From Chthonomonadaceae bacterium (GTDB taxonomy: Bacteria > Armatimonadota > Chthonomonadetes > Chthonomonadales > Chthonomonadaceae): a stretch of 21,142 bases of DNA. Location: assembly GCA_035295825.1 (NCBI GenBank), contig DATGIG010000080.1:1-21142 (forward strand), written 5' to 3'. Under the pieces are notes generated by a model that saw only the letters and a list, made by a program, of their open reading frames with translations, was not told the origin of the DNA and made no database searches. Positions within the stretch are counted from its first letter, which is position 1. Each line of letters starts with the position of its first letter. Both the position numbers and the translations under genes were made by a program. Shown in pieces: positions 8,823 through 20,926 of this stretch.

Positions 8823-10075
8823 CACAGATGACGGCGCGGCCGGGCGCATTCCGGTTGATTATCCGTGAGGGGGGACAAATTCGTGAGATGGGCGGCGACC
8901 TGACCGAAGCCGTCACCGCTGTAGACTTTATTATGCGCCAGGCGCTGGATCTGGGCGCTTCCGACATCCACCTGCAGCCGGAGCGCAACCGCCTGCTGGT
9001 GCGCTATCGCATCGATGGCGTGCTCCACGATGTGGGCCAGTATAGTCTGGAGATCGTTCCCAACATCACAGCCCGTTTGAAGCTGGCCGCTACGATGCAT
9101 ATCGACGAACGCCGCGAACCGCAGGACGGACGCCTGGATATGGAGTATGGCCCCCGCAAACTCAGCGCGCGTATGTCCTGCCTACCGATGCTGAACGGCG
9201 AGAAGATCGTTATGCGTCTGCTGGACCCGATGGGCGCCAAGGTGGAACTGGACAAGCTGGGGATGCCTAAAGACGTGCTGGATAAATGGCATAATGCCGT
9301 GCAGTCCTCCTACGGCATGGCGCTGGTCACCGGCCCGACCGGAAGCGGCAAGACCTCCACGCTCTACGCCTCCATCAATAAGCTGGATCGCACCAAGCGC
9401 AACATCGTGACGGTCGAGGACCCGGTCGAATACGAGTTCTCCGACCACATCACCCAGGTGCAGGTCACAGAGCGTCTCACCTTCGCCCGTACCATGCGCG
9501 CGTTCCTCCGCCAGGACCCGGACGTGATGCTCGTGGGAGAGATGCGCGACCCGGAGACGCTGGGCATCGGTATTCAGGCCAGCCTGACGGGTCACCTTGT
9601 CCTCAGCACCCTCCACACCAACAACGCCATCGAGACCCTGGGGCGTATGATCGACATGGGCGGCGAACCCTACCTGATCGCCTCCACCATACAGGCGATC
9701 ATGGCGCAGCGCCTGGTCCGCACCATCTGCAGCAAGTGCAAGACGCCCTACAAGCCCAATCCCGACGAACTGCTGGAGGTCGGCCTGCCGGTGGACCTGA
9801 TCGAAAAGCACACCTTCTACAAGGGCGCAGGCTGTACCGAATGCCGCAACACCGGCTACAAGGGACGCCTGGGCCTGTTCGAATGCCTCATCAGCACGCC
9901 GGAACTGCGCGAACTCATTGCACGCCGCGCGCCGATCTCCGACATCACCAACTACGTGCGCAACAAGCAGGGCATGCGGACCATGCTCGAAGACGGCTAT
10001 ACCAAGATCGCCGAGGGGCGCACGACCTGCCACGAGGTCTTTACCGCTGTCTACTCCACCATGTCCGTCGGCTAG
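8819..10075 (+). CDS. GspE/PilB-family secretion ATPase (type II secretion / type IV pilus assembly ATPase), minimal N2+CTD form
   Basis: Walker A GPTGSGKTST, Walker B/Asp box DPDVMLVGEMRD, His box LTGHLVLSTLHTNNA, tetracysteine Zn motif CSKCK...CTECRNTGYKGR, and N2-domain start ASDIHLQPE. The ATG overlaps the SBP stop (ATGA). Confidence 0.85.
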   Translation: MTQMTARPGAFRLIIREGGQIREMGGDLTEAVTAVDFIMRQALDLGASDIHLQPERNRLLVRYRIDGVLHDVGQYSLEIVPNITARLKLAATMHIDERREPQDGRLDMEYGPRKLSARMSCLPMLNGEKIVMRLLDPMGAKVELDKLGMPKDVLDKWHNAVQSSYGMALVTGPTGSGKTSTLYASINKLDRTKRNIVTVEDPVEYEFSDHITQVQVTERLTFARTMRAFLRQDPDVMLVGEMRDPETLGIGIQASLTGHLVLSTLHTNNAIETLGRMIDMGGEPYLIASTIQAIMAQRLVRTICSKCKTPYKPNPDELLEVGLPVDLIEKHTFYKGAGCTECRNTGYKGRLGLFECLISTPELRELIARRAPISDITNYVRNKQGMRTMLEDGYTKIAEGRTTCHEVFTAVYSTMSVG

Positions 10076-10087
10076 CTTTCCTCCTCT

Positions 10088-10122
10088 ATGTCTCCGCTCC
10101 CGGATGCTGGGAGCGGAGACAT
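10088..10122. terminator. 14-bp perfect hairpin (ATGTCTCCGCTCCC-ggatgct-GGGAGCGGAGACAT) between convergent genes; probable bidirectional intrinsic terminator
   Basis: Read from the sequence. Lies 12 nt after the gspE-like stop and about 100 nt after the stop of the minus-strand 1305-aa gene; followed by a T-rich stretch (ctattctaagtt). Confidence 0.5.
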
Positions 10123-10219
10123 CTATTCTAAGTTGTCTAAGGCGCTATAGTCAGGTTCAGAATGCTGTCCCTTCTCCAACCTCTCTTCAAGTCGCTTTTC
10201 ATTAAGTCTCTTCGTTTCT

Positions 10220-13200
10220 TCAAATCTCGTTTAAGTCTTCTGTTGGTTGTATCTCTACTATCGCTAGAGGTTGGTAAGCGGCCACGTTTGGAGATGCTGA
10301 TTCCTCAGAATCACTATCGAAGCGAAAGATTTTTTTTGCATCTCGCCCGGTAGCTTTGTCTCTAATAGATACCATAAGTAGATTGTTGGCATCTATATCG
10401 AATATCACTTCAAGCTGTGGGATACCACGAGGTGCAGGAGGGATTCCTTCCAAATACACTTCACCCAGGAACTTATTTGCTATGGCAATTTCCCGCTCGC
10501 CTTCGTAAATATTTACTGTAACAGAGATTTGGTTGTCTTCGGCAGTTGAGAAGACATCGCTCTTTCTAGTGGGAATACTTGTGTTACGCTCAATGAGCCT
10601 GGTGAATACGCCTCCCTGAGTTTCTATACCGAGGGAGAGAGAAGTTGCATCCAATAACAGATTCTTGAACTCCCCGCTGCCTGTACCTGTCAGAATGCCG
10701 GCCTCAAGGGCTGCACCCAGAGCAACGGCTTCATCGGGGTCAATTCCTCGTTTCGGTTCTTTCCCAAAAAAACGCCCTGCTGCTTCACGTACTAGCGGAA
10801 TCTTTGTGGATAGTCCAACCAGTACCAATTCATCTATATTTTGTATCTTTATTTTGGCATCCTCTATAGCGCGTTGGCAGCACTCCATAGTACGTTCGAC
10901 AAGGTCAGCGGTTAACTGCTCGAAGGTTGCACGGCTTAGGTCTACGTTCAGATGCTTGGCACCTTCTGCGTCTGCGGTGATATAGGGAACAGATATGGTG
11001 ACGATTTCCTGTCCGGAAAGCGCAATCTTGGCCCGTTCTGCGGCTTCCATCAAGCGGACCCGAGCCTCCTTGTCTTGAGATAGGTCAATGCCATTCTGTC
11101 GTTTGAATATTTCAATTATGTGATGCATAATTCGTGTATCGAAGTCCATTCCACCTAATCTGGTATCGCCATTGACTGACAGTATCTCACCGACAAAACC
11201 GCCATCTTCGGTATTCCCGGTATCTAACAACGAAATATCAAATGTACCGCCGCCCAGATCGTATACAGCTACCGTCCGGTCATACATATATCCTGCACTA
11301 TAGGCGAAGGATGCTGCCGTAGGTTCTGCGATTATTCGCAACACCTTCCAACCTGCCTGCTCGGCGGCGCGTTTTGTAGTTGCACTCTGAACACGATTAA
11401 AATAAGCTGGGACAGTGACAACAGCTTCGGAGATGGGACGCTCCAAATAACTTTCCGCATCCTGCTTCAAAAATGCGAAAATGTGAGCGGCTATTTCTTC
11501 GGGAGTGTATAGCCTGTCATAAATTTTGATTTTATCCGAACTCCCTAATAGTCTCTTGATGGCAAATACGGTTCCCTCAGCATTGATCTGGGCTTGCAGC
11601 AAAGCGGAAGCACCTACCGTCACTTCGCCGTCCCTGGTAAAGGCCACAACGGAAGGCGTTAGTTTGATTCCTTCCCGGTTAGGAATGATGATCGGCTTAC
11701 CGTTCCGCACCACGGCAATCAGAGACGACGTTGTGCCGAAGTCGATGCCTACTGCGGAACTGGTATTCCACAGCGAGCGTTCCTCCCAATCAGGATCGGT
11801 GATCTGTTCGACAATGTCTTGGTCAGGTCTTCCTTCTTCCTTTTGGCTTAACATCTTTCGGATTATTTGCTGATGATAGGCAGGAAGGCGTTTCAGAGCG
11901 CGGTCTAATTCTGCGATTGCTCCTAGTTTGTGCAGTGCAATTGCAGCATATCTGGAAATCTTCGTACGGTCGTCTGCAACATAATCTGCATATGATGGAA
12001 TAAGCTGATCGCCTAGACTGCTCGCTATTGCCTCCCATTCGGATAAGAAATCCACAAAAACGAGACTGCGGAAGAGCAGTTTCCGAGCAGAGTTCGAGAT
12101 AGTCAAGTCTCTCCAATAAGAACAGATATCCTTTAACTTCTCCTTTGTAATCAACTGTTGGTAGCGAGGCCAGTATTGAACCTCCATATCCAGCAGGTCC
12201 TGTGCTTCTTTTATTTTAATCTCACGCTCGGAGAGCCATTTCCATATTTCAGTGACGATATACTCATGCACGACCTCATAACGGTAGCCAGCCTCTGTCT
12301 CGATACGCCGTAATAGGTGATGATCTATCAGTTCCGTGAGGATATTTTCGATATATGGTAAACCTTGCCTCAGTGCCGTGGCAATCTCCACCTTGGATAA
12401 CAGGTTCTTTGTTTGACGAATGGTTACCAGAGATTGCAGGATTCTCTTTGCTGTTGCCCGTCGTGTATGGCTGAACTTCTCCAGTACCTGCATCAGATAG
12501 TTGCCAAGGATTTCTCTGGCTCCGCCCATGGCGCGGTAGTGGTCTATAGTGATGATGGTATCCTTCGCATGTTCCTGGTACAACCTGTAACAGACAATCT
12601 GAAGCTGTGCGGGCGCGATGCTTCCGGCGTAGCGTAGCTCTTCCAAGATTTGATCCACCAACCCCTCTTGATATTGGATGCCGAAGGGTTCCAATGGACG
12701 CGTAATTGCCTCTCTTGCTCCCTCCTTCGATAGATTATTTAAACGCTCGACATAGAAATAGGGCTGCCGAAAATGCTTTTTCATGCCTTCCAGTTCAACC
12801 AAAAAATCGTCCCGAAGAGACAAAACGAGATGTAGGTCAATACGTTGTGATTGTAAACACTGTACCAACGCTCTGGTTAGTTCTTGTTGTAGGTTCTCTT
12901 CTAATCGAAATACTTCTTCGAACTGGTCTATGAAGAGAATGACGGTCTTCCCCGTCCGCTGCTGTACACGCAGAAGCAACTTCAGCAGTCGCTCGTCTCC
13001 TCTTTCCTCCACATCGAGCGCACCGCTATATTCCGCTTCCACCGCATCGGCAATATCTTTTTCAATCGCGTTGAGCGGAGCATCCAGGCAACGACTATAG
13101 ATAGGAAAACAGTTCAATTTTGTCAGTGCAGGAATCAAGCCGGCCTTAATGCAGGACGTTTTACCCACTCCGGAACTGCCGACCAGTATCTGCAGGCGAC

Positions 13201-14137
13201 GTGTCAGAATCACCTTGCTCAAGACACTGATTTCCTGTTGCCGACCGAAGAACTGATCGCTCTGATTCGTTTCAAAATAGTCCAGAAAACGATAAGGAGA
13301 ATGGGGACGGTTGGCTATCCTATTTGTACTGATCTTCGGGGTAGTAGCCTCATAGCGTGCGAGTTGTTGCTCCAGAATCTGGAAAAATCGGAAAGGATCT
13401 TCGGAGTGAATTTTGATGTTTTCCAGCTTCCAATCATCCTTATCTTCCGGACGAGCATGAGGCTGCACAGCATATACCCTACGAGGAAACCGAGTTGTTC
13501 CCGATCCGATTTGGCGATAAAGGAATTTCCAATACACATCGTTCAGATCGTAGCCGCAAAAAAGAAGCGTTCGTGTTGCACATAAGTAGCGAATCCATTC
13601 GCACAGATAAGAGCGCTTCTGTGGGAAATCCAGGCAGTCATTCTCTGTCAGAACCAGAGAATCCCGTTGATCCGTGCTACCATACGCCTGGATGAGCGTT
13701 GTTCGCTGGCTATCGACAAAGGTAACCATGTCATCGCGAACCACATAAATCAGCGGTTTCTGTGCGCGGTCATAGGCTTCTTTTAGCCGCATATCAATAC
13801 GCGTGGTGATGATAACTGGAAAGGGAAGACGGGGAATGATAAGATCAAGAGGGTTAGGAACCTTGCTTTGAGCTTCTGTCCAACTGCAGACACGCTCAAT
13901 CAGGCGATGCGTCCCCATTTTTTGCTCATAACGCTTTGCTACAAGGGGAAATTTGCGCTCGATCTCCACTCCCGACATTTCCGAGAGCAGTTCAGCCATC
14001 AATTGCTCTTCAAATGCTCCTTCTCCTGATGGTGCGACACCTGCCCCAACAAAAAGAATACAGTTTCCGCGCGCAAGCTGCTCGATCAGTTCGTGAAGGT
14101 CGAAATCGGAAGATAAGTCATTCGTTTGGCGATTCAT
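10220..14137 (-). CDS. Large tripartite fusion protein (1305 aa): N-terminal SIR2-like domain (SIR2_2 family, catalytic Asn/His replaced), central nSTAND-type P-loop NTPase with winged-helix/helical region, C-terminal Hsp70 (DnaK-like NBD + SBD-beta, no alpha-helical lid)
   Basis: aa 15-260: [14 protein letters not shown]...[13 protein letters not shown]...LIQAYGS, paralogous to the upstream SIR2 gene. aa 275-640: [27 protein letters not shown]...[22 protein letters not shown] (Walker A), [13 protein letters not shown] (Walker B), [30 protein letters not shown] (conserved post-WH motif of nSTAND NTPases). aa 794-1270: [120 protein letters not shown]...[34 protein letters not shown], i.e. a canonical Hsp70 NBD and beta-sandwich. 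The gene ends about 35 aa after the SBD-beta. AT-rich codon usage differs from the flanks. Confidence 0.85.
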
Positions 14138-14275
14138 CGTTGTATTTTCCTGAAGATGCAGAATTTGAAATCCATTCTCCCTGTTCGCTTTCGAATGTAA
14201 TCTCTTGTCTGCAACAGTGTATGATTAACCAGGGAGCTATAATGGAACTATAGCATCCGACGCCTATCCTCTAGC

Positions 14276-15031
14276 TTATAACTGGACTTTTATCGCTTCC
14301 AGAAATGTGTAAGCGTCGGCGTCAAGAACCTGCACGTTCTTCTGTTGCCAGTACTTGATGGCGAAGCGAGAGGGGTTAAGTTGCACCGCATAGGCGCGTC
14401 GGATATGACGTCCAAGATGACGCACAACTTCATGATAAAGGCGTCGAAAATCTTCATCCATTAGCCCGAAGCCAAGAAACAGAACCGTTTGTGTGGCAAA
14501 GTAAGCGCGCACCAAATTGGTTGTTTCAGGCAAGCGGGCAAAAACATCATAATAGTCATCACCCAGGACGACAATTGTATCTTGCTGCTCAATGGAACCA
14601 TGCAATTTGATGAGTAGCCTCTTATTTTGATTGATAAAAGCGACTTCGGTATCACGCACAACGCGGTCGACGGGAATCTGGGCTTGGCGCAAAGCTTCTT
14701 CCAATAGGTTGTCCCAGTTCGTTGTAATGATGCGCTGAAAAGGTAGCTCCGCAATCATGTGATGTGCCGGCAGAGGCTGGATTTGTGGTGTGTTGATCCG
14801 GCTGGTGATGTATTGAAGGAGACTGTGAAGTCCCATTTCGAGGACATAGCCTTGGGCAACCTCTGGCAGAGGCATACAAGTAATATTTCCTAATTGTGCA
14901 CGCTGGGCGAGTTCTGAGGCTAATTGTCCTCCGCTCGGCAATCCTCCTGGTGACAAAGAGATACCTGCTCCGCAAAACAGGACACTATTGTTATTGCGGA
15001 TCTGTTCCAGTAACTCACTCGGTATATTCAT
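14276..15031 (-). CDS. Standalone SIR2-like protein (SIR2_2 / DHS-like NAD-binding family, catalytic Asn and His present); first gene of the SIR2 / SIR2-STAND-Hsp70 operon
   Basis: VLFCGAGISLSPGGLPSGGQLASELA (Rossmann GAG loop), RIITTNWDNLLEEA (conserved TTNxD with catalytic Asn), LIKLHGS (catalytic His), VLFLGFGLMDEDF. Aligns residue-for-residue with aa 15-260 of the downstream fusion protein. A 138-bp gap separates it from the next gene on the same strand. Confidence 0.8.
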   Translation of the reverse strand: MNIPSELLEQIRNNNSVLFCGAGISLSPGGLPSGGQLASELAQRAQLGNITCMPLPEVAQGYVLEMGLHSLLQYITSRINTPQIQPLPAHHMIAELPFQRIITTNWDNLLEEALRQAQIPVDRVVRDTEVAFINQNKRLLIKLHGSIEQQDTIVVLGDDYYDVFARLPETTNLVRAYFATQTVLFLGFGLMDEDFRRLYHEVVRHLGRHIRRAYAVQLNPSRFAIKYWQQKNVQVLDADAYTFLEAIKVQL

Positions 15032-15352
15032 ACGCGATGGTTCATCCTCTATCCATTTGTTATTGCTTTATCATCGAGGTTGGGTTATCCTACTTCAAAC
15101 CGATAGGATTTTGTGCCTCTCTTCAAATTGGACGTGACTATTTCCAGGTCATGTAGCTCCTCGAATACAAGTTCCAACAAGTAATTAGCGATTGTTCGCT
15201 TGTGTTCCTCCTAAAATTGGTAAATTCTCTGTGCCATTTGGTTTTCCGTGAAAGATGCCACTTTGGCATTCTGGTCGCAGTCCGATTGGCCGAAGATCTA
15301 AAAGACGGGGCGTTCACTGCAGGGCTAATTTTGCTCATAGAGCACTAGATTG

Positions 15353-15412
15353 TAATCGTTTTGGAATGAGGTACTATAAAAATAATCGTTTTGGAATAGG
15401 AGTAATCGTTTT
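15353..15412. repeat. Three direct repeats of TAATCGTTTTGGAAT (15353-15367, 15383-15397; third partial copy TAATCGTTTT 15403-15412) immediately upstream of, and abutting, the fic start codon, within the divergent SIR2-operon/fic promoter region
   Basis: Read from the sequence, with 30-bp and 20-bp spacing. TACTATAAAAAT (-10-like) lies between copies 1 and 2. Confidence 0.45.
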
Positions 15413-15415
15413 AGC

Positions 15416-16924
15416 ATGGCTTCCGTCTTTCTTAATGAAGCACGCACTCCGGTCGGGCAAATCGCACTCCACGGGACACTCAATCTCATGATACCGTCCC
15501 CAGTCGTGCAGAGTTTTGTTGTTGCCGGCGCTAGACGCACACGGGAGACGGAGACATACATTGAGGAGTATTATCCCTCGCACTACAATACCGATGGGAC
15601 CTTGATTGAAAATCTCCGGTTCGCTCTGAAACACGAGCCGCTTGACCTACGTGTGGTCTCCGCAGCATTGGAAGCGATAGGGGAGGATGCTCTCACTGCC
15701 TGGGTTCGCACGGAACCTACAGGCGCTTTCAGCCGTCGCGCCTGGTTCTTCTATGAAACCCTGATCGGGCGAACCCTCGATCTCGAAGCCGTAAAAGCGG
15801 GCAACTATGTGGATGCACTGGACGAACGACGTCACTTTGTCGCCGCTCCGATCAATTCCAGCCGGCATCGGGTCCGCGATAATCTGCTTGGCACACGTGA
15901 TCTGTGTCCTGTCGTGCGACGCACTCCAAAGTTGGAGGCAATGATCGCTGCGCACCTGGATGCGGAAGCACGGGCAATGGCAGCGCACTACTCCCCGGAG
16001 ACCCTGGCTCGCGCGGTGAACTTTCTCTACACTAAGGAGACGCGCTCCTCTTTTGCCATAGAAGGGGAAGCGCCCAGTCGGAATAGGGAGGAAAGGTTTC
16101 TTCAGGCGCTACAAGCTGTATCCACTTTCGATCCTGCCGACAAAAACGCCCTGATTCGTTTGCAGGGTAGTATTGTAGACCCTCGCTATGCAGCTCACGG
16201 TTGGCGCGACTTTCAGAACTTCGTCGGTGAGACCACACGGCGCTTTGGAGAGTATGTGCATTTTATCTGCCCGCGCCCGGAAGATATATCGTCTCTGATG
16301 GAGGGTTGGATGGCACTAACGGAACGCCTCCTGATAAGCCCCCTCGATCCGGTAATCGCGGCAGCGGTCAGCGCCTTTGCATTCGTCTTCCTACATCCGT
16401 TCGAGGATGGCAATGGGCGCATTCATCGCTTCCTGATCCACTATATACTCTCCAAACGAGGCTTTAGTCCGCCCGGAGTGATCTTTCCTGTGAGTGCGGC
16501 CATCCTGCGTCAACGCCATCTGTACGATAAGACCCTGGAAGCGTTCTCAAAGCCTATTATGGCCGCTATCGAATGGGACTTCGTGGAAGAGAATGCCCTT
16601 CAAGTACAGAACGACACATGTAACCTTTATCGCTTCTTCGATGCCACCCCGCAGGCGGAATATCTTTATGAGAGGGTTGCAGAGACCATTCGCGTGGATT
16701 TCAAAGAGGAGTTGGACTTCCTGGAAGTCTACGATGCGGCGTTTACAGCGGTGCGTGAGATCGTAGATATGCCGGACCGGCGTGCTTCGCTTCTCGTGCG
16801 CCTCTGCCTGCAAAATGGCGGGCGGCTTTCGCAAAACAAACGTAAGCAATTTGTAGAACTGACGGACGAAGAGATAAACCAGATAGAGGCAGCGATCCTA
16901 CGGGTACTGCGACAAGAGTTGTAA
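15416..16924 (+). CDS. Fic-family protein (AMPylase-type, Fic motif HPFEDGNGRIHR) with an N-terminal auto-inhibitory helix motif SFAIEG
   Basis: FVFLHPFEDGNGRIHRFLIHYIL matches HPFx(D/E)GNGR. TRSSFAIEGEAPS upstream matches the (S/T)xxxE(G/N) inhibitory motif of class II Fic proteins. ATG 15416 with AGGAG 13 nt upstream. Confidence 0.85.
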   Translation: MASVFLNEARTPVGQIALHGTLNLMIPSPVVQSFVVAGARRTRETETYIEEYYPSHYNTDGTLIENLRFALKHEPLDLRVVSAALEAIGEDALTAWVRTEPTGAFSRRAWFFYETLIGRTLDLEAVKAGNYVDALDERRHFVAAPINSSRHRVRDNLLGTRDLCPVVRRTPKLEAMIAAHLDAEARAMAAHYSPETLARAVNFLYTKETRSSFAIEGEAPSRNREERFLQALQAVSTFDPADKNALIRLQGSIVDPRYAAHGWRDFQNFVGETTRRFGEYVHFICPRPEDISSLMEGWMALTERLLISPLDPVIAAAVSAFAFVFLHPFEDGNGRIHRFLIHYILSKRGFSPPGVIFPVSAAILRQRHLYDKTLEAFSKPIMAAIEWDFVEENALQVQNDTCNLYRFFDATPQAEYLYERVAETIRVDFKEELDFLEVYDAAFTAVREIVDMPDRRASLLVRLCLQNGGRLSQNKRKQFVELTDEEINQIEAAILRVLRQEL

Positions 16925-17023
16925 CAAGTCAACCGTTGTCCCTGCTATAGATACTTTCGCCGAGCGTGCAATGCATTCTGTTGCAAATAGCGGAATGTTT
17001 GCAAGAAATAACGTTTTTCCCCC

Positions 17024-17052
17024 TTGCCGCCCTTGAGAGAGAGGTGTAGAAT
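17024..17052 (+). promoter_or_regulatory. Sigma70-like promoter for the NfeD/flotillin operon: -35 TTGCCG (17024-17029), 17-nt spacer, -10 TAGAAT (17047-17052)
   Basis: Hexamers and spacing read from the sequence, about 58 nt upstream of the nfeD ATG. Flanked by four GTTTGCAA/TTGCAA palindromic hexamers (16981, 16999, 17067, 17083). Confidence 0.35.
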
Positions 17053-20246: not shown

Positions 20247-20300
20247 CTGCTTAGAAGCGGATTGGTCATTTATGCAAGCGGAGCAAGATTAGGGGGATCC

Positions 20301-20543
20301 ATGACACAAGTAACGCTCGAAGAAGCGGAAGAAACACTTCCACAATTGATTCAGATCGTGCAGCAAGGGGAAGAGATTATTATCACAGCGGATAGCAAGC
20401 CTATCGCCCGATTGACTTCCATTGCCAAAATCGAGCCCAAGGAGAAACCTCGCCCCCAATTTGGAAGCGGAAAAGGGTTGCTTCTTTATATGGCTCCCGA
20501 TTTTGATGCGCCCCTCGACGACTTCAAAGAGTACATGGAATGA
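20301..20543 (+). CDS. Type II antitoxin (VapB-like partner of the downstream PIN toxin)
   Basis: 80-aa acidic protein MTQVTLEEAEETLPQLIQIVQQGEEIIITADSKPIARL... with AGGGGGA SD 6 nt upstream. Its stop overlaps the toxin start (ATGA). The upstream in-frame TTG 20262 is less likely (no RBS). Confidence 0.6.
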   Translation: MTQVTLEEAEETLPQLIQIVQQGEEIIITADSKPIARLTSIAKIEPKEKPRPQFGSGKGLLLYMAPDFDAPLDDFKEYME

Positions 20544-20926
20544 GATTGCTCATAGATACCCATACTTTCCTCTGGTTCGTCGAGGGGGACCTCCAACTGA
20601 GCCAAGAGGCCAAACGACTCCTTGAGGACGAAAATAATGAGAGATGGTTAAGCCTGGCAAGCGTCTGGGAGATGGCGATCAAAATCAGCATCGGAAAGCT
20701 ACGCCTAGGTCAACCACTTGCAGAGTATGTTCGTGAACAAACGGAGCGCAATACAATCTCTTTGCTACCCATAACTTTGCCCCATGTTCTTCCCCTGACA
20801 AATTTACCTTTACACCACCGTGATCCATTCGACCGTCTTCTTGTCATGCAAAGCGTTGTGGAAGGTATGCCGATTGTCAGTGCAGACGCAGTTCTGGACG
20901 CTTATAACCTGCATCGTCTGTGGTAA
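20540..20926 (+). CDS. vapC: PIN-domain ribonuclease toxin (VapC family)
   Basis: MRLLIDTHTFLWFVEGD (N-terminal acidic D of PIN), ...LASVWEMAIKISIGKL..., DPFDRLLVMQSVVEGMPIVSADAVLDAY, the characteristic VapC layout. 128 aa. Confidence 0.8.
   Translation: MRLLIDTHTFLWFVEGDLQLSQEAKRLLEDENNERWLSLASVWEMAIKISIGKLRLGQPLAEYVREQTERNTISLLPITLPHVLPLTNLPLHHRDPFDRLLVMQSVVEGMPIVSADAVLDAYNLHRLW

What the first reader, a model, noticed from the sequence alone, without database searches (positions are those of the whole stretch)
13358..14095. The fused SIR2 domain has lost both catalytic residues (TTN->TTR, LHGS->AYGS), whereas the adjacent standalone SIR2 keeps them
Direct alignment of the two paralogs:
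- standalone ELPFQRIITTNWDNLLEEALRQAQIPVDRVVRDTEVAFINQNKRLLIKLHGSIEQ
- fused    [55 protein letters not shown]
The conserved catalytic Asn (ThsA N112 equivalent) is Arg113 in the fusion, and the catalytic His (ThsA H152 equivalent) is Tyr152. The neighbouring Asp is retained, as is the fold-defining GAG loop. This pattern (an enzymatically dead scaffold domain in the sensor/switch protein and an intact enzyme encoded separately) suggests the fused pseudo-SIR2 recruits or templates the free SIR2 by heterodimerisation, so NADase activity is licensed only when the STAND oligomerises. This split-effector logic has not been reported for SIR2 systems. Catalytic codons are at fusion 13799-13801 (R113) and 13682-13684 (Y152), and standalone 14717-14719 (N105) and 14600-14602 (H144).
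Basis: partly seen in the sequence, partly recalled or inferred. Interest (0 to 1): 0.85.

Follow-up and report, generated by a model that had tools for sequence, protein, structure and literature searches.

The report
Dead SIR2 adaptor on Hsp70-STAND protein
A bacterial immune-type switch protein carries an inactivated copy of an NAD-destroying enzyme at its tip while an intact copy is encoded next door, and comparison with relatives suggests the dead copy serves as a docking module for the live enzyme and for other killer enzymes.

Summary
The 1305-aa ORF (10220-14137, minus strand) is SIR2-like + nSTAND1 NTPase + lidless Hsp70. Its SIR2 domain has Arg113 and Tyr152 where ThsA has N112 and H152. 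The upstream 251-aa SIR2 (14276-15031) keeps GAG, Asn105 and His144.

The loss is not a local accident:
- All 12 distinct SIR2-nSTAND1-Hsp70 proteins found lack the Asn (11 Arg, 1 Ser). Ten keep the His.
- The dead domain is under purifying selection (dN/dS 0.11-0.14).
- Of 141 SIR2 domains fused to nSTAND1 in 50%-identity cluster representatives, 113 lack both residues.

Thirteen of 20 loci with a dead-SIR2 STAND carry a second SIR2-fold gene in the fetched flanks. None of 6 loci with an intact-SIR2 STAND does. The partner SIR2 stands alone or is fused to PNP, TIR, CHAT or caspase domains.

I read the dead SIR2 as an effector-docking or nucleating module, like Aravind's effector-associated domains but built from an enzyme fold. 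It would couple STAND oligomerisation to the free NADase. Physical contact is not tested. The closest precedents are FAM118A/B and the EAD principle. I rate it a new variant of a known kind.

The parts
14276..15031 (-). Standalone SIR2 gene, 251 aa, the predicted NADase effector
   Evidence: Pfam SIR2_2 3e-30. Best PDB matches are KomC, DSR2 and ThsA. GAG, TTNWD, LHGS and GFGLMD are all intact. 39 of 39 close homologues keep Asn and His.
14717..14719 (-). Asn105 codon (AAC) of the standalone SIR2, equivalent to ThsA N112
14600..14602 (-). His144 codon (CAT) of the standalone SIR2, equivalent to ThsA H152 and KomC H146
14138..14275 (-). 138-bp spacer between the two same-strand genes
   Evidence: No terminator-like site on the minus strand here, so co-transcription is plausible but not shown.
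10220..14137 (-). 1305-aa ORF: pseudo-SIR2 + nSTAND1 NTPase + lidless Hsp70
   Evidence: Pfam SIR2_2 1.8e-16, nSTAND1 4.7e-53, HSP70 1.8e-161
13352..14095 (-). Pseudo-SIR2 domain (aa 15-262)
14033..14047 (-). Retained GAGVA glycine loop of the pseudo-SIR2 (aa 31-35)
   Evidence: This loop is degenerate in most orthologues.
13799..13801 (-). Arg113 codon (CGT) at the catalytic Asn position
   Evidence: Arg in 11 of 12 family members.
13682..13684 (-). Tyr152 codon (TAT) at the catalytic His position
   Evidence: His is kept in 10 of 12 family members.
12227..13297 (-). nSTAND1 NTPase module (aa 281-637), with Walker A GSSGVGKT at 13157-13180 and Walker B LFIDQFEE at 12914-12937
10328..11755 (-). 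Hsp70 nucleotide-binding domain plus beta substrate-binding domain (aa 795-1270), without the alpha-helical lid; sits in the sensor position of the STAND
   Evidence: Pfam HSP70 profile positions 1-495 of 599. DnaK model positions 3-490 of 625. ATPase motifs and the LLLD linker are conserved, and the lid is absent family-wide.

Best explanation
This is a two-gene NLR-like (STAND) conflict or defence module on a low-GC island.

Shown:
- The large protein has a lidless but ATPase-competent Hsp70 in the position where related nSTAND1 proteins carry FGE/CLec, beta-propeller or HEAT sensor domains.
- It has a central nSTAND1 NTPase with intact Walker motifs.
- Its N-terminal SIR2-fold domain has lost the catalytic Asn (and here also the His), yet is conserved under purifying selection.
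- The gene upstream encodes a complete SIR2 of the ThsA/KomC/DSR2 type.

Inferred:
- A trigger bound by the Hsp70 module lets the nSTAND1 domains oligomerise.
- The clustered pseudo-SIR2 domains then form a platform. That platform docks, or seeds the assembly of, the free SIR2 through SIR2-fold to SIR2-fold contacts.
- This switches on NAD+ hydrolysis and aborts the infection.

The pseudo-SIR2 thus acts like an effector-associated or death-fold adaptor. In relatives the same module appears to bring in SIR2-tagged PNP, TIR, CHAT or caspase effectors.
For: (1) Residue equivalence and fold are established.

(2) Asn is lost in 12 of 12 SIR2-nSTAND1-Hsp70 proteins, and the GAG loop is degenerate in most.

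(3) The dead domain is constrained: dN/dS is 0.11-0.14, against 0.11-0.14 for nSTAND1 and 0.13-0.30 for Hsp70.

(4) A second SIR2-fold gene lies next to the dead-SIR2 STAND in the window and in L001, L005, L006, L012, L011, L014, L071, L009, L075, L072, L095 and L138. The genes often overlap start to stop. No such gene lies next to the intact-SIR2 STANDs L016, L017, L022, L042, L052 and L074. That is 13/20 against 0/6, hypergeometric P about 0.007, not corrected for phylogeny.

(5) The partner carries swappable extra domains: none, PNP_UDP_1, TIR, CHAT, or an unknown C-terminal extension. Locus L151 holds a live SIR2, a dead-SIR2-caspase and a dead-SIR2-nSTAND1-HEAT together.

(6) The two SIR2-only partners in the window's clade that were examined have the full catalytic set, and 39 of 39 clade members keep it. 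Partners that carry CHAT or caspase can be dead themselves (L009, L151).

(7) The nearest solved relatives (ThsA, KomC, FAM118B) are all activated through SIR2-SIR2 filament or oligomer contacts. FAM118A and FAM118B need each other for activity.

(8) nSTAND1 proteins are already known to use an N-terminal EAD that pairs with an EAD-effector gene nearby.
Against: - No direct evidence of contact between the two proteins, and no phenotype data for any member.
- Two orthologues (L002, L003) have no SIR2 partner in the fetched flanks and instead sit between large helicases. Five more dead-SIR2 STAND loci also show none, although several have short flanks.
- The fused and partner domains are only 24-35% identical and belong to separate old clades. 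The partners themselves fall in two clades, so one interface would have to accept both.
- L059 pairs a CHAT-pseudoSIR2 protein with an nSTAND1 protein in which no SIR2 domain was detected.
- This copy keeps a canonical GAG loop, so nucleotide binding is not excluded.
Confidence: 0.58

Rival explanations
1. Sequestration model, the reverse sign of the same contact. The pseudo-SIR2 holds the free SIR2 in an inactive heteromer, like an antitoxin. STAND activation releases the SIR2, which then self-assembles into an active homo-oligomer or filament.
For: It rests on the same genomic linkage as the main model. A constitutively expressed intact NADase needs a brake. KomBC is pre-assembled and inactive before its signal arrives.
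Against: Partners fused to CHAT, TIR or PNP domains would need the same brake to work on unrelated catalytic domains. Known STAND/NLR logic is induced proximity, not release. No data discriminate between the two signs.
Confidence: 0.18
2. The fused domain is a ligand-binding regulatory domain (NAD+, ADPR or another nucleotide) that gates the STAND. It does not dock the partner. The neighbouring SIR2 acts upstream or downstream only through small molecules.
For: This copy keeps GAG, the motif Asp115 and the G-x-x-L-x-D Asp. Pseudoenzymes often survive as ligand sensors.
Against: The GAG loop is degenerate in most orthologues (GTG, GRG, GIE, GAQ, GTR, AES) and in most of the 141 nSTAND1-fused SIR2 domains. 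An Arg commonly sits at the former Asn or His position, which could occupy the pocket. This model does not explain why partners with dead SIR2 domains fused to CHAT or caspase co-occur with dead-SIR2 STANDs.
Confidence: 0.1
3. The fused SIR2 is still an enzyme with non-canonical residues, for example an ADP-ribosyltransferase or a His-independent NADase. The small SIR2 would then be a second, redundant effector.
For: Avs5 SIR2 domains work with NG instead of HG, so the motifs tolerate some change. The Arg at the Asn position is strictly conserved in the Hsp70 family.
Against: The equivalent Asn is required in every tested enzyme found in the papers read: Avs5 N110A and FAM118 N163A/N148A. From my own knowledge it is also required in ThsA (N112A) and DSR2 (N133A). 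Here the His is lost too. The GAG loop has decayed in orthologues.
Confidence: 0.05
4. The two genes are independent defence genes that merely sit together in a defence island. The dead SIR2 is an evolutionary relic.
For: The island also holds an unrelated Fic/PDC-S24 gene. A 138-bp spacer separates the two genes. The closest relatives of the small SIR2 are mostly annotated as solitary 250-aa proteins.
Against: The linkage recurs in more than 10 diverged loci from at least four phyla, often with overlapping stop and start codons. Both partner homologues whose context was checked lie in operons with dead-SIR2 STANDs. dN/dS of 0.11-0.14 argues against a relic.
Confidence: 0.05

Closest known systems
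Avs5 / AVAST type 5 (SIR2-STAND single-protein defence)
   Same: N-terminal SIR2-fold domain, central STAND NTPase and C-terminal sensor. NAD+ depletion is the expected output.
   Different: In Avs5 the fused SIR2 is itself the enzyme (N110 is essential; HG or NG motif) and the system is a single gene. Here the fused SIR2 lacks the Asn and the enzyme is a separate gene. The NTPase is nSTAND1 and the sensor is an Hsp70. PADLOC gave no Avs hit.
EAD-coupled STAND/ternary conflict systems (Kaur, Burroughs, Iyer, Aravind 2020, 2021), e.g. EAD8-nSTAND1-FGE with an EAD8-trypsin gene nearby
   Same: The same domain sits on the core NTPase protein and on the effector protein of a neighbouring gene. It is terminal in both. 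The effectors fused to the second copy vary. The NTPase family is the same, nSTAND1.
   Different: [quoted passage not shown] Here the shared module is a 250-aa enzyme fold. The two copies are 24-35% identical and lie in separate clades. The partner copy can itself be the active effector.
FAM118A / FAM118B vertebrate SIR2_2 paralogues
   Same: Two SIR2_2-type paralogues are weakly active alone and strongly NAD-consuming together, through SIR2-SIR2 head-to-tail contacts. FAM118B is a detectable sequence relative of the small SIR2.
   Different: Both FAM118 proteins need their own Asn and His. Neither is fused to a STAND. Here one partner is catalytically dead.
Thoeris ThsA and Kongming KomC filament-activated SIR2 NADases
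   Same: They are the closest solved structures to both SIR2 domains here. Their activity is switched by SIR2-SIR2 oligomer or filament geometry.
   Different: They are activated by small-molecule signals (gcADPR, dITP) through SLOG or KomB. There is no STAND and no dead paralogue. No SLOG domain, ThsB, KomA or KomB is present here.
NLR-templated amyloid signalling (fungal NWD2/HET-S; bacterial BASS motifs)
   Same: A two-gene layout in which the N-terminus of an NLR carries the same element as the adjacent effector and is thought to template its assembly (paper listed).
   Different: That element is a short amyloid motif, not a globular enzyme-derived domain.

Membership tests
Defence-type SIR2 NADase (SIR2_2: ThsA/DSR2/KomC-like), applied to the fused domain | SIR2 Rossmann-type fold | tested here: met
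   Pfam SIR2_2 1.8e-16. AF2 model pLDDT 86; Foldseek TM 0.75-0.83 to ThsA, KomC and DSR2.
Defence-type SIR2 NADase, applied to the fused domain | Catalytic Asn of the TTN.D motif (ThsA N112) | tested here: not met
   Arg113. Arg or Ser in 12 of 12 orthologues.
Defence-type SIR2 NADase, applied to the fused domain | Catalytic His of the HG motif (ThsA H152, KomC H146) | tested here: not met
   Tyr152. His is kept in 10 of 12 orthologues. Avs5 shows that His can be replaced by Asn.
Defence-type SIR2 NADase, applied to the fused domain | GAG dinucleotide-binding loop | tested here: met
   G31-A32-G33 are present in this copy, but the loop is degenerate in most orthologues.
Defence-type SIR2 NADase, applied to the fused domain | NAD+ hydrolysis activity | not testable with these tools
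   Needs an enzyme assay.
Defence-type SIR2 NADase, applied to the standalone 251-aa protein | GAG loop, TTN.D Asn/Asp, HG His, and the G.xLxD Asp (KomC D194 equivalent) | tested here: met
   G21-A-G23, N105/D107, H144 and D192. All are kept in 39 of 39 close homologues.
nSTAND1 STAND NTPase | Pfam PF20703 above the gathering score, with Walker A and Walker B | tested here: met
   181.6 bits against a cut-off of 27.1. GSSGVGKT and LFIDQFEE.
Avs5 (AVAST type 5) | Single protein whose fused SIR2 is the active NADase | tested here: not met
   The Asn is lost. The separate SIR2 gene is conserved. No Avs model hit in PADLOC.
Thoeris | ThsA = SIR2 + SLOG (or Macro) domain, together with a TIR ThsB gene | tested here: not met
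   The PADLOC ThsA models match only over the SIR2 part. No SLOG domain and no TIR gene are present in the window.
EAD-coupled conflict system (Kaur et al.) | Same terminal domain on the core NTPase protein and on a neighbouring effector protein, with variable effectors | tested here: met
   Partners are SIR2 alone, PNP-SIR2, TIR-SIR2, SIR2-CHAT and SIR2-caspase.
EAD-coupled conflict system (Kaur et al.) | The adaptor is a small domain with no enzymatic features | tested here: not met
   It is a domain of about 250 aa with an enzyme fold, and the partner copy is often catalytically complete.
EAD-coupled conflict system (Kaur et al.) | Copies in adjacent genes are each other's closest relatives | tested here: not met
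   24-35% identity; the fused and partner domains form separate clades.
Hsp70/DnaK chaperone | Nucleotide-binding domain motifs, interdomain linker and beta substrate-binding domain | tested here: met
Hsp70/DnaK chaperone | Alpha-helical lid and C-terminal tail | tested here: not met
   The profile match ends at 495 of 599. Only 14-69 residues follow the beta domain in 9 of 10 family members, against 139 in a canonical DnaK. The L014 figure of 132 comes from a stop-to-stop fragment.
FAM118A/B-type SIR2 paralogue partnership | Both paralogues are catalytically competent and both are required | tested here: not met
   One paralogue lacks Asn and His. The requirement for both proteins is not testable here.

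The most novel reading that the evidence does not exclude
The SIR2 fold has been co-opted, on a large scale, as a death-domain-like assembly module of bacterial NLR-type proteins. Catalytically dead SIR2 domains on nSTAND1 NTPases would form an oligomeric seed. That seed recruits or nucleates SIR2-tagged effectors: live SIR2 NADases, and PNP, TIR, CHAT or caspase enzymes carrying their own live or dead SIR2 tag. This would be a new class of effector-associated domain derived from an enzyme. In this particular family the trigger would be read by an integrated, lidless Hsp70, possibly a decoy for phage factors that engage DnaK.
Probability: 0.4. Interest if true: 0.85.

Novelty: new variant of a known kind. 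Interest (0 to 1): 0.68.

Why it matters
If the dead SIR2 really docks or seeds SIR2-tagged effectors, three things follow.
1. It would explain why most SIR2 domains fused to nSTAND1 NTPases have no catalytic residues: 113 of 141 cluster representatives lack both.
2. It would add an enzyme-derived fold to the short list of homotypic immune adaptors (death fold, TIR, amyloid motifs).
3. It would warn annotation pipelines that 'SIR2-STAND' does not imply an NADase.

It also offers a simple two-protein system for asking how filament-activated SIR2 enzymes are nucleated. The family further shows an Hsp70 used as the sensor of an NLR-like protein. No paper pairing a dead with a live SIR2, or placing an Hsp70 on a SIR2-bearing STAND, turned up in my searches.

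Tried and rejected
No multimer prediction was possible.
- I looked for a cryptic SIR2 in the helicase neighbours of the two partner-less orthologues. Pfam at E<0.01, my own SIR2 HMM and hhalign all found nothing.
- PADLOC found no system-level match for the large protein, only ThsA-type SIR2 similarity. NCBIfam names only the DnaK-like part.
- Literature searches for a pseudo-SIR2 or inactive SIR2 adaptor, and for SIR2+Hsp70+STAND, found no paper describing this arrangement. Kaur 2020 does not mention SIR2 at all, and Kaur 2021 lists SIR2 only as an effector.
- I rejected 'recent tandem duplicate with one copy decaying'. The two domains are 32-33% identical, they sit in separate old clades, and the dead copy is under purifying selection.
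- I rejected membership in Thoeris, Avs5 and Kongming (see the membership tests).
- The promoter/terminator scan was uninformative apart from showing no terminator between the genes. No tRNA genes mark the island.
- Residue-level structural superposition could not be obtained, because fold search returns scores only. Residue equivalence therefore rests on HMMER alignments across two highly conserved motifs.
Full report
**What is in the window**

Bases ~10,050-17,050 form a low-GC island (GC 0.43-0.55, against 0.60-0.69 in the flanks). The host genes around it include Planctomycete-type cytochrome, ABC transporter and T2SSE genes. The public record names the contig as a Chthonomonadaceae MAG.

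The island holds three genes.
- A 1305-aa ORF on the minus strand (10220-14137).
- A 251-aa ORF 138 bp upstream on the same strand (14276-15031).
- A divergent 502-aa Fic-domain gene (15416-16924), which matches the PADLOC candidate PDC-S24 at 4e-185.

The large protein has three Pfam domains: SIR2_2 (profile match aa 108-237; the whole domain spans about 15-262), nSTAND1 (aa 281-637, 4.7e-53) and HSP70 (aa 795-1270, 1.8e-161). The small protein is SIR2_2 only (3e-30).

- The two quoted peptide strings are exact.
- The two SIR2 domains align without gaps across both catalytic motifs: 33% identity, E 2e-39.
- All four codon coordinates are correct.
- HMMER alignments to solved chains place the fused R113 under ThsA N112 and the KomC TTN Asn.
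- The same alignments place Y152 under ThsA H152 and KomC H146. The deposited H146A and H146N mutants differ at exactly that column.
- The GAG loop and Asp115 are retained.
- An AF2 model of residues 1-265 is confident (pLDDT 86, pTM 0.85).
- Its best PDB neighbours are the ThsA helical filament, the KomC/KomBC helical assemblies and DSR2 (TM 0.75-0.83).
- I could not obtain a residue-level structural superposition, so equivalence rests on sequence alignment through two very conserved motifs.

**The loss is a family trait, with one correction**

A search with residues 1-790 found eight further proteins with the same SIR2-nSTAND1-Hsp70 architecture at 43-46% identity, plus a Viridilinea copy. 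Genome and metagenome scans added two more, L014 and L071.

- In all 12 distinct sequences the Asn is gone: Arg in 11, Ser in Viridilinea.
- The His is kept in 10. Only the window copy (Tyr) and Viridilinea (Cys) lack it.
- The GAG loop is canonical only in the window copy.

So 'Asn to Arg' is the conserved change. 'Both residues lost' is local to this copy.

The domain is not decaying. Among four close orthologues its dN/dS is 0.11-0.14, the same as nSTAND1 (0.11-0.14) and lower than or equal to Hsp70 (0.13-0.30).

The pattern is wider still. An exhaustive HMMER search of 1.84 billion cluster representatives returned about 150 SIR2-nSTAND1 proteins. Of their 141 alignable SIR2 domains:
- 113 lack both Asn and His;
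- 8 keep only one of the two, in each direction;
- 12 keep both.

An Arg sits at the former Asn position in 28 and at the former His position in 30. A dead SIR2 is therefore the norm on nSTAND1 proteins, and only two of these representatives carry Hsp70.

**The partner**

The neighbourhoods of the orthologues are very different, except that a second SIR2-fold gene is nearly always present.

| Locus | Partner | Position |
|---|---|---|
| window, L011, L014 | SIR2 only | upstream, convergent downstream, overlapping downstream |
| L001, L005 | PNP_UDP_1-SIR2 | overlapping start/stop |
| L006-8 | TIR-SIR2 | overlapping |
| L012 | C-terminal fragment of the same partner type | upstream |
| L071 | SIR2 plus an unknown ~250-aa extension | downstream |
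| L009 (Viridilinea) | SIR2-CHAT | downstream |

The same pairing occurs outside the Hsp70 family.
- L075 has a dead-SIR2-nSTAND1-FGE protein plus an intact SIR2-CHAT.
- L095 and L138 have nSTAND1 proteins with a C-terminal dead SIR2, plus an intact SIR2 gene upstream.

Counting only loci that were reached through the STAND gene, 13 of 20 dead-SIR2 STAND loci show a second SIR2-fold gene in the fetched flanks. None of 6 intact-SIR2 STAND loci does. The hypergeometric P is about 0.007, but the loci are not phylogenetically independent and several 'no' loci have short flanks.

I also approached from the partner side. The small SIR2 has 39 close homologues (57-100% identity), and all of them keep GAG, Asn and His. 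The two whose context I could fetch both lie in operons with dead-SIR2-nSTAND1-HEAT proteins. One of these loci (L151) also encodes a dead-SIR2-caspase.

Motif states in partners:
- SIR2-only partners of the window's clade are fully intact.
- Partners of the second clade keep GAG, Asn and both Asp residues, but have Gly, Cys or Tyr at the His position.
- The Viridilinea and L151 CHAT/caspase partners have lost both residues.

Because Avs5 SIR2 domains are active with NG instead of HG, I treat loss of Asn, not loss of His, as the reliable sign of inactivity.

**Mechanism**

Shown:
- the domain order;
- intact Walker A and B motifs;
- an Hsp70 part with every ATPase motif, the LLLD linker and the beta substrate-binding domain, but no alpha-helical lid;
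- a dead but constrained SIR2 on the STAND, and a complete SIR2 next door.

Established knowledge:
- STAND/NLR-like proteins oligomerise on ligand binding and activate N-terminal domains by induced proximity.
- ThsA, KomC and FAM118B are switched by SIR2-SIR2 oligomer or filament geometry.
- nSTAND1 proteins use N-terminal effector-associated domains that pair with EAD-tagged effectors encoded nearby.

Inference: the trigger engages the Hsp70 module, nSTAND1 oligomerises, and the clustered pseudo-SIR2 domains dock or seed the free SIR2. The free SIR2 then hydrolyses NAD+.

A sequestration variant, in which the pseudo-SIR2 holds the enzyme inactive until release, fits the genomics equally well and can only be separated by experiment. 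What the Hsp70 senses is unknown. Related nSTAND1 proteins carry FGE/CLec, beta-propeller or HEAT domains in that position, so I treat it as the sensor. One possibility is an integrated decoy for phage factors that engage DnaK, but that is speculation.

**What argues against it**

- There is no interaction or phenotype evidence.
- Two orthologues (L002, L003) lie between an RNase HII-helicase and a 1800-aa DEAD/MZB helicase, with no detectable SIR2 partner.
- The fused and partner domains are only 24-35% identical and form separate clades. The partners fall into two clades, so partner replacement has occurred. This departs from the EAD rule that adjacent copies are closest relatives.
- L059 has a CHAT-pseudoSIR2 protein next to an nSTAND1 protein in which no SIR2 domain was detected.

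**Comparison with what is known, and novelty**

This is not Avs5, because the fused SIR2 is dead, the system has two genes, and the NTPase and sensor are different. It is not Thoeris or Kongming, because no SLOG domain, ThsB, KomA or KomB is present.

It works like an EAD-coupled STAND system, but it fails two defining EAD features: being small and non-enzymatic, and having adjacent copies that are closest relatives. The nearest SIR2 precedent is the FAM118A/B partnership, in which both paralogues must be catalytically competent.

My searches of 8 million full texts found no description of a dead/live SIR2 pair, of SIR2 as an adaptor, or of an Hsp70-bearing SIR2-STAND. Subscription-only papers were not searched.

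I rate it a new variant of a known kind, of real interest to people who work on bacterial NLR-like immunity and SIR2 effectors, and readily testable.

Noticed in passing
window 10328-11755 (-): An Hsp70 occupies the C-terminal sensor position of a STAND NTPase. Its nucleotide-binding domain, linker and beta substrate-binding domain are present and all ATPase motifs are intact, but the alpha-helical lid is missing. Relatives carry FGE/CLec, beta-propeller or HEAT domains in that position. I found no paper describing an Hsp70-STAND fusion in bacteria.
   Followed up: partly
window 15416-16924 (+): A divergently oriented 502-aa Fic-domain gene in the same low-GC island matches the PADLOC candidate defence family PDC-S24 almost end to end (4e-185). 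It is probably a separate defence gene.
   Followed up: no
window ~10050-17050: A low-GC island (0.43-0.55, against 0.60-0.69 in the flanks) holds the three genes. No tRNA or integrase was seen at its edges.
   Followed up: partly
window 14276-15031 (-): The public collection holds this gene product as a 199-aa protein (P0259) starting at an internal Met, which removes the GAG loop. Homologues of 250-260 aa cover the full 251-aa ORF, so the longer start is the right one.
   Followed up: yes
loci L001, L005, L006, L011, L014, L071 vs window and L075: The His pattern is complementary within pairs. Where the partner SIR2 lacks His (Gly, Cys or Tyr), the fused dead SIR2 keeps it. Where the partner keeps His (window, L075), the fused one lacks it. 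Only Viridilinea, whose effector is CHAT, lacks Asn and His in both. This could reflect few independent events, or some sharing of function between the two domains.
   Followed up: no
proteins P0111-P0258: Of 141 SIR2 domains fused to nSTAND1 in 50%-identity cluster representatives, 113 lack both catalytic residues and only 12 keep both. An Arg sits at the former Asn position in 28 and at the former His position in 30, perhaps filling the empty pocket against the conserved motif Asp.
   Followed up: partly
L002 4215-17415; L003 3988-10013: Two orthologues have no SIR2 partner. They sit between an RNase HII + DEAD_2 helicase (1237 aa) and a 1800-aa DEAD + MrfA-Zn-binding helicase, followed by an NB-ARC-like NTPase gene. 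This may be a different effector coupling.
   Followed up: partly
L151 8001-16783: One locus carries three SIR2-fold genes: an intact standalone SIR2, a dead-SIR2-nSTAND1-HEAT gene (fragmented into three ORFs, perhaps by assembly frameshifts) and a dead-SIR2-caspase (Peptidase_C14).
   Followed up: partly
L009 8001-11882: In Candidatus Viridilinea mediisalina the SIR2-nSTAND1-Hsp70 gene is split into 906-aa and 372-aa ORFs inside the Hsp70 domain. This is a frameshift, a pseudogene or a sequencing error.
   Followed up: no
window 20262-20926 (+): A VapB/Phd-like antitoxin gene (93 aa) and a PIN-domain gene (128 aa) overlap by 4 bp, forming a type II toxin-antitoxin pair in another lower-GC stretch.
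   Followed up: no
L079 528-9331; L135; L141: In these loci the SIR2 is a separate gene immediately upstream of an nSTAND1 gene. L079 has two such pairs in tandem. They look like split versions of the SIR2-nSTAND1 fusion.
   Followed up: no
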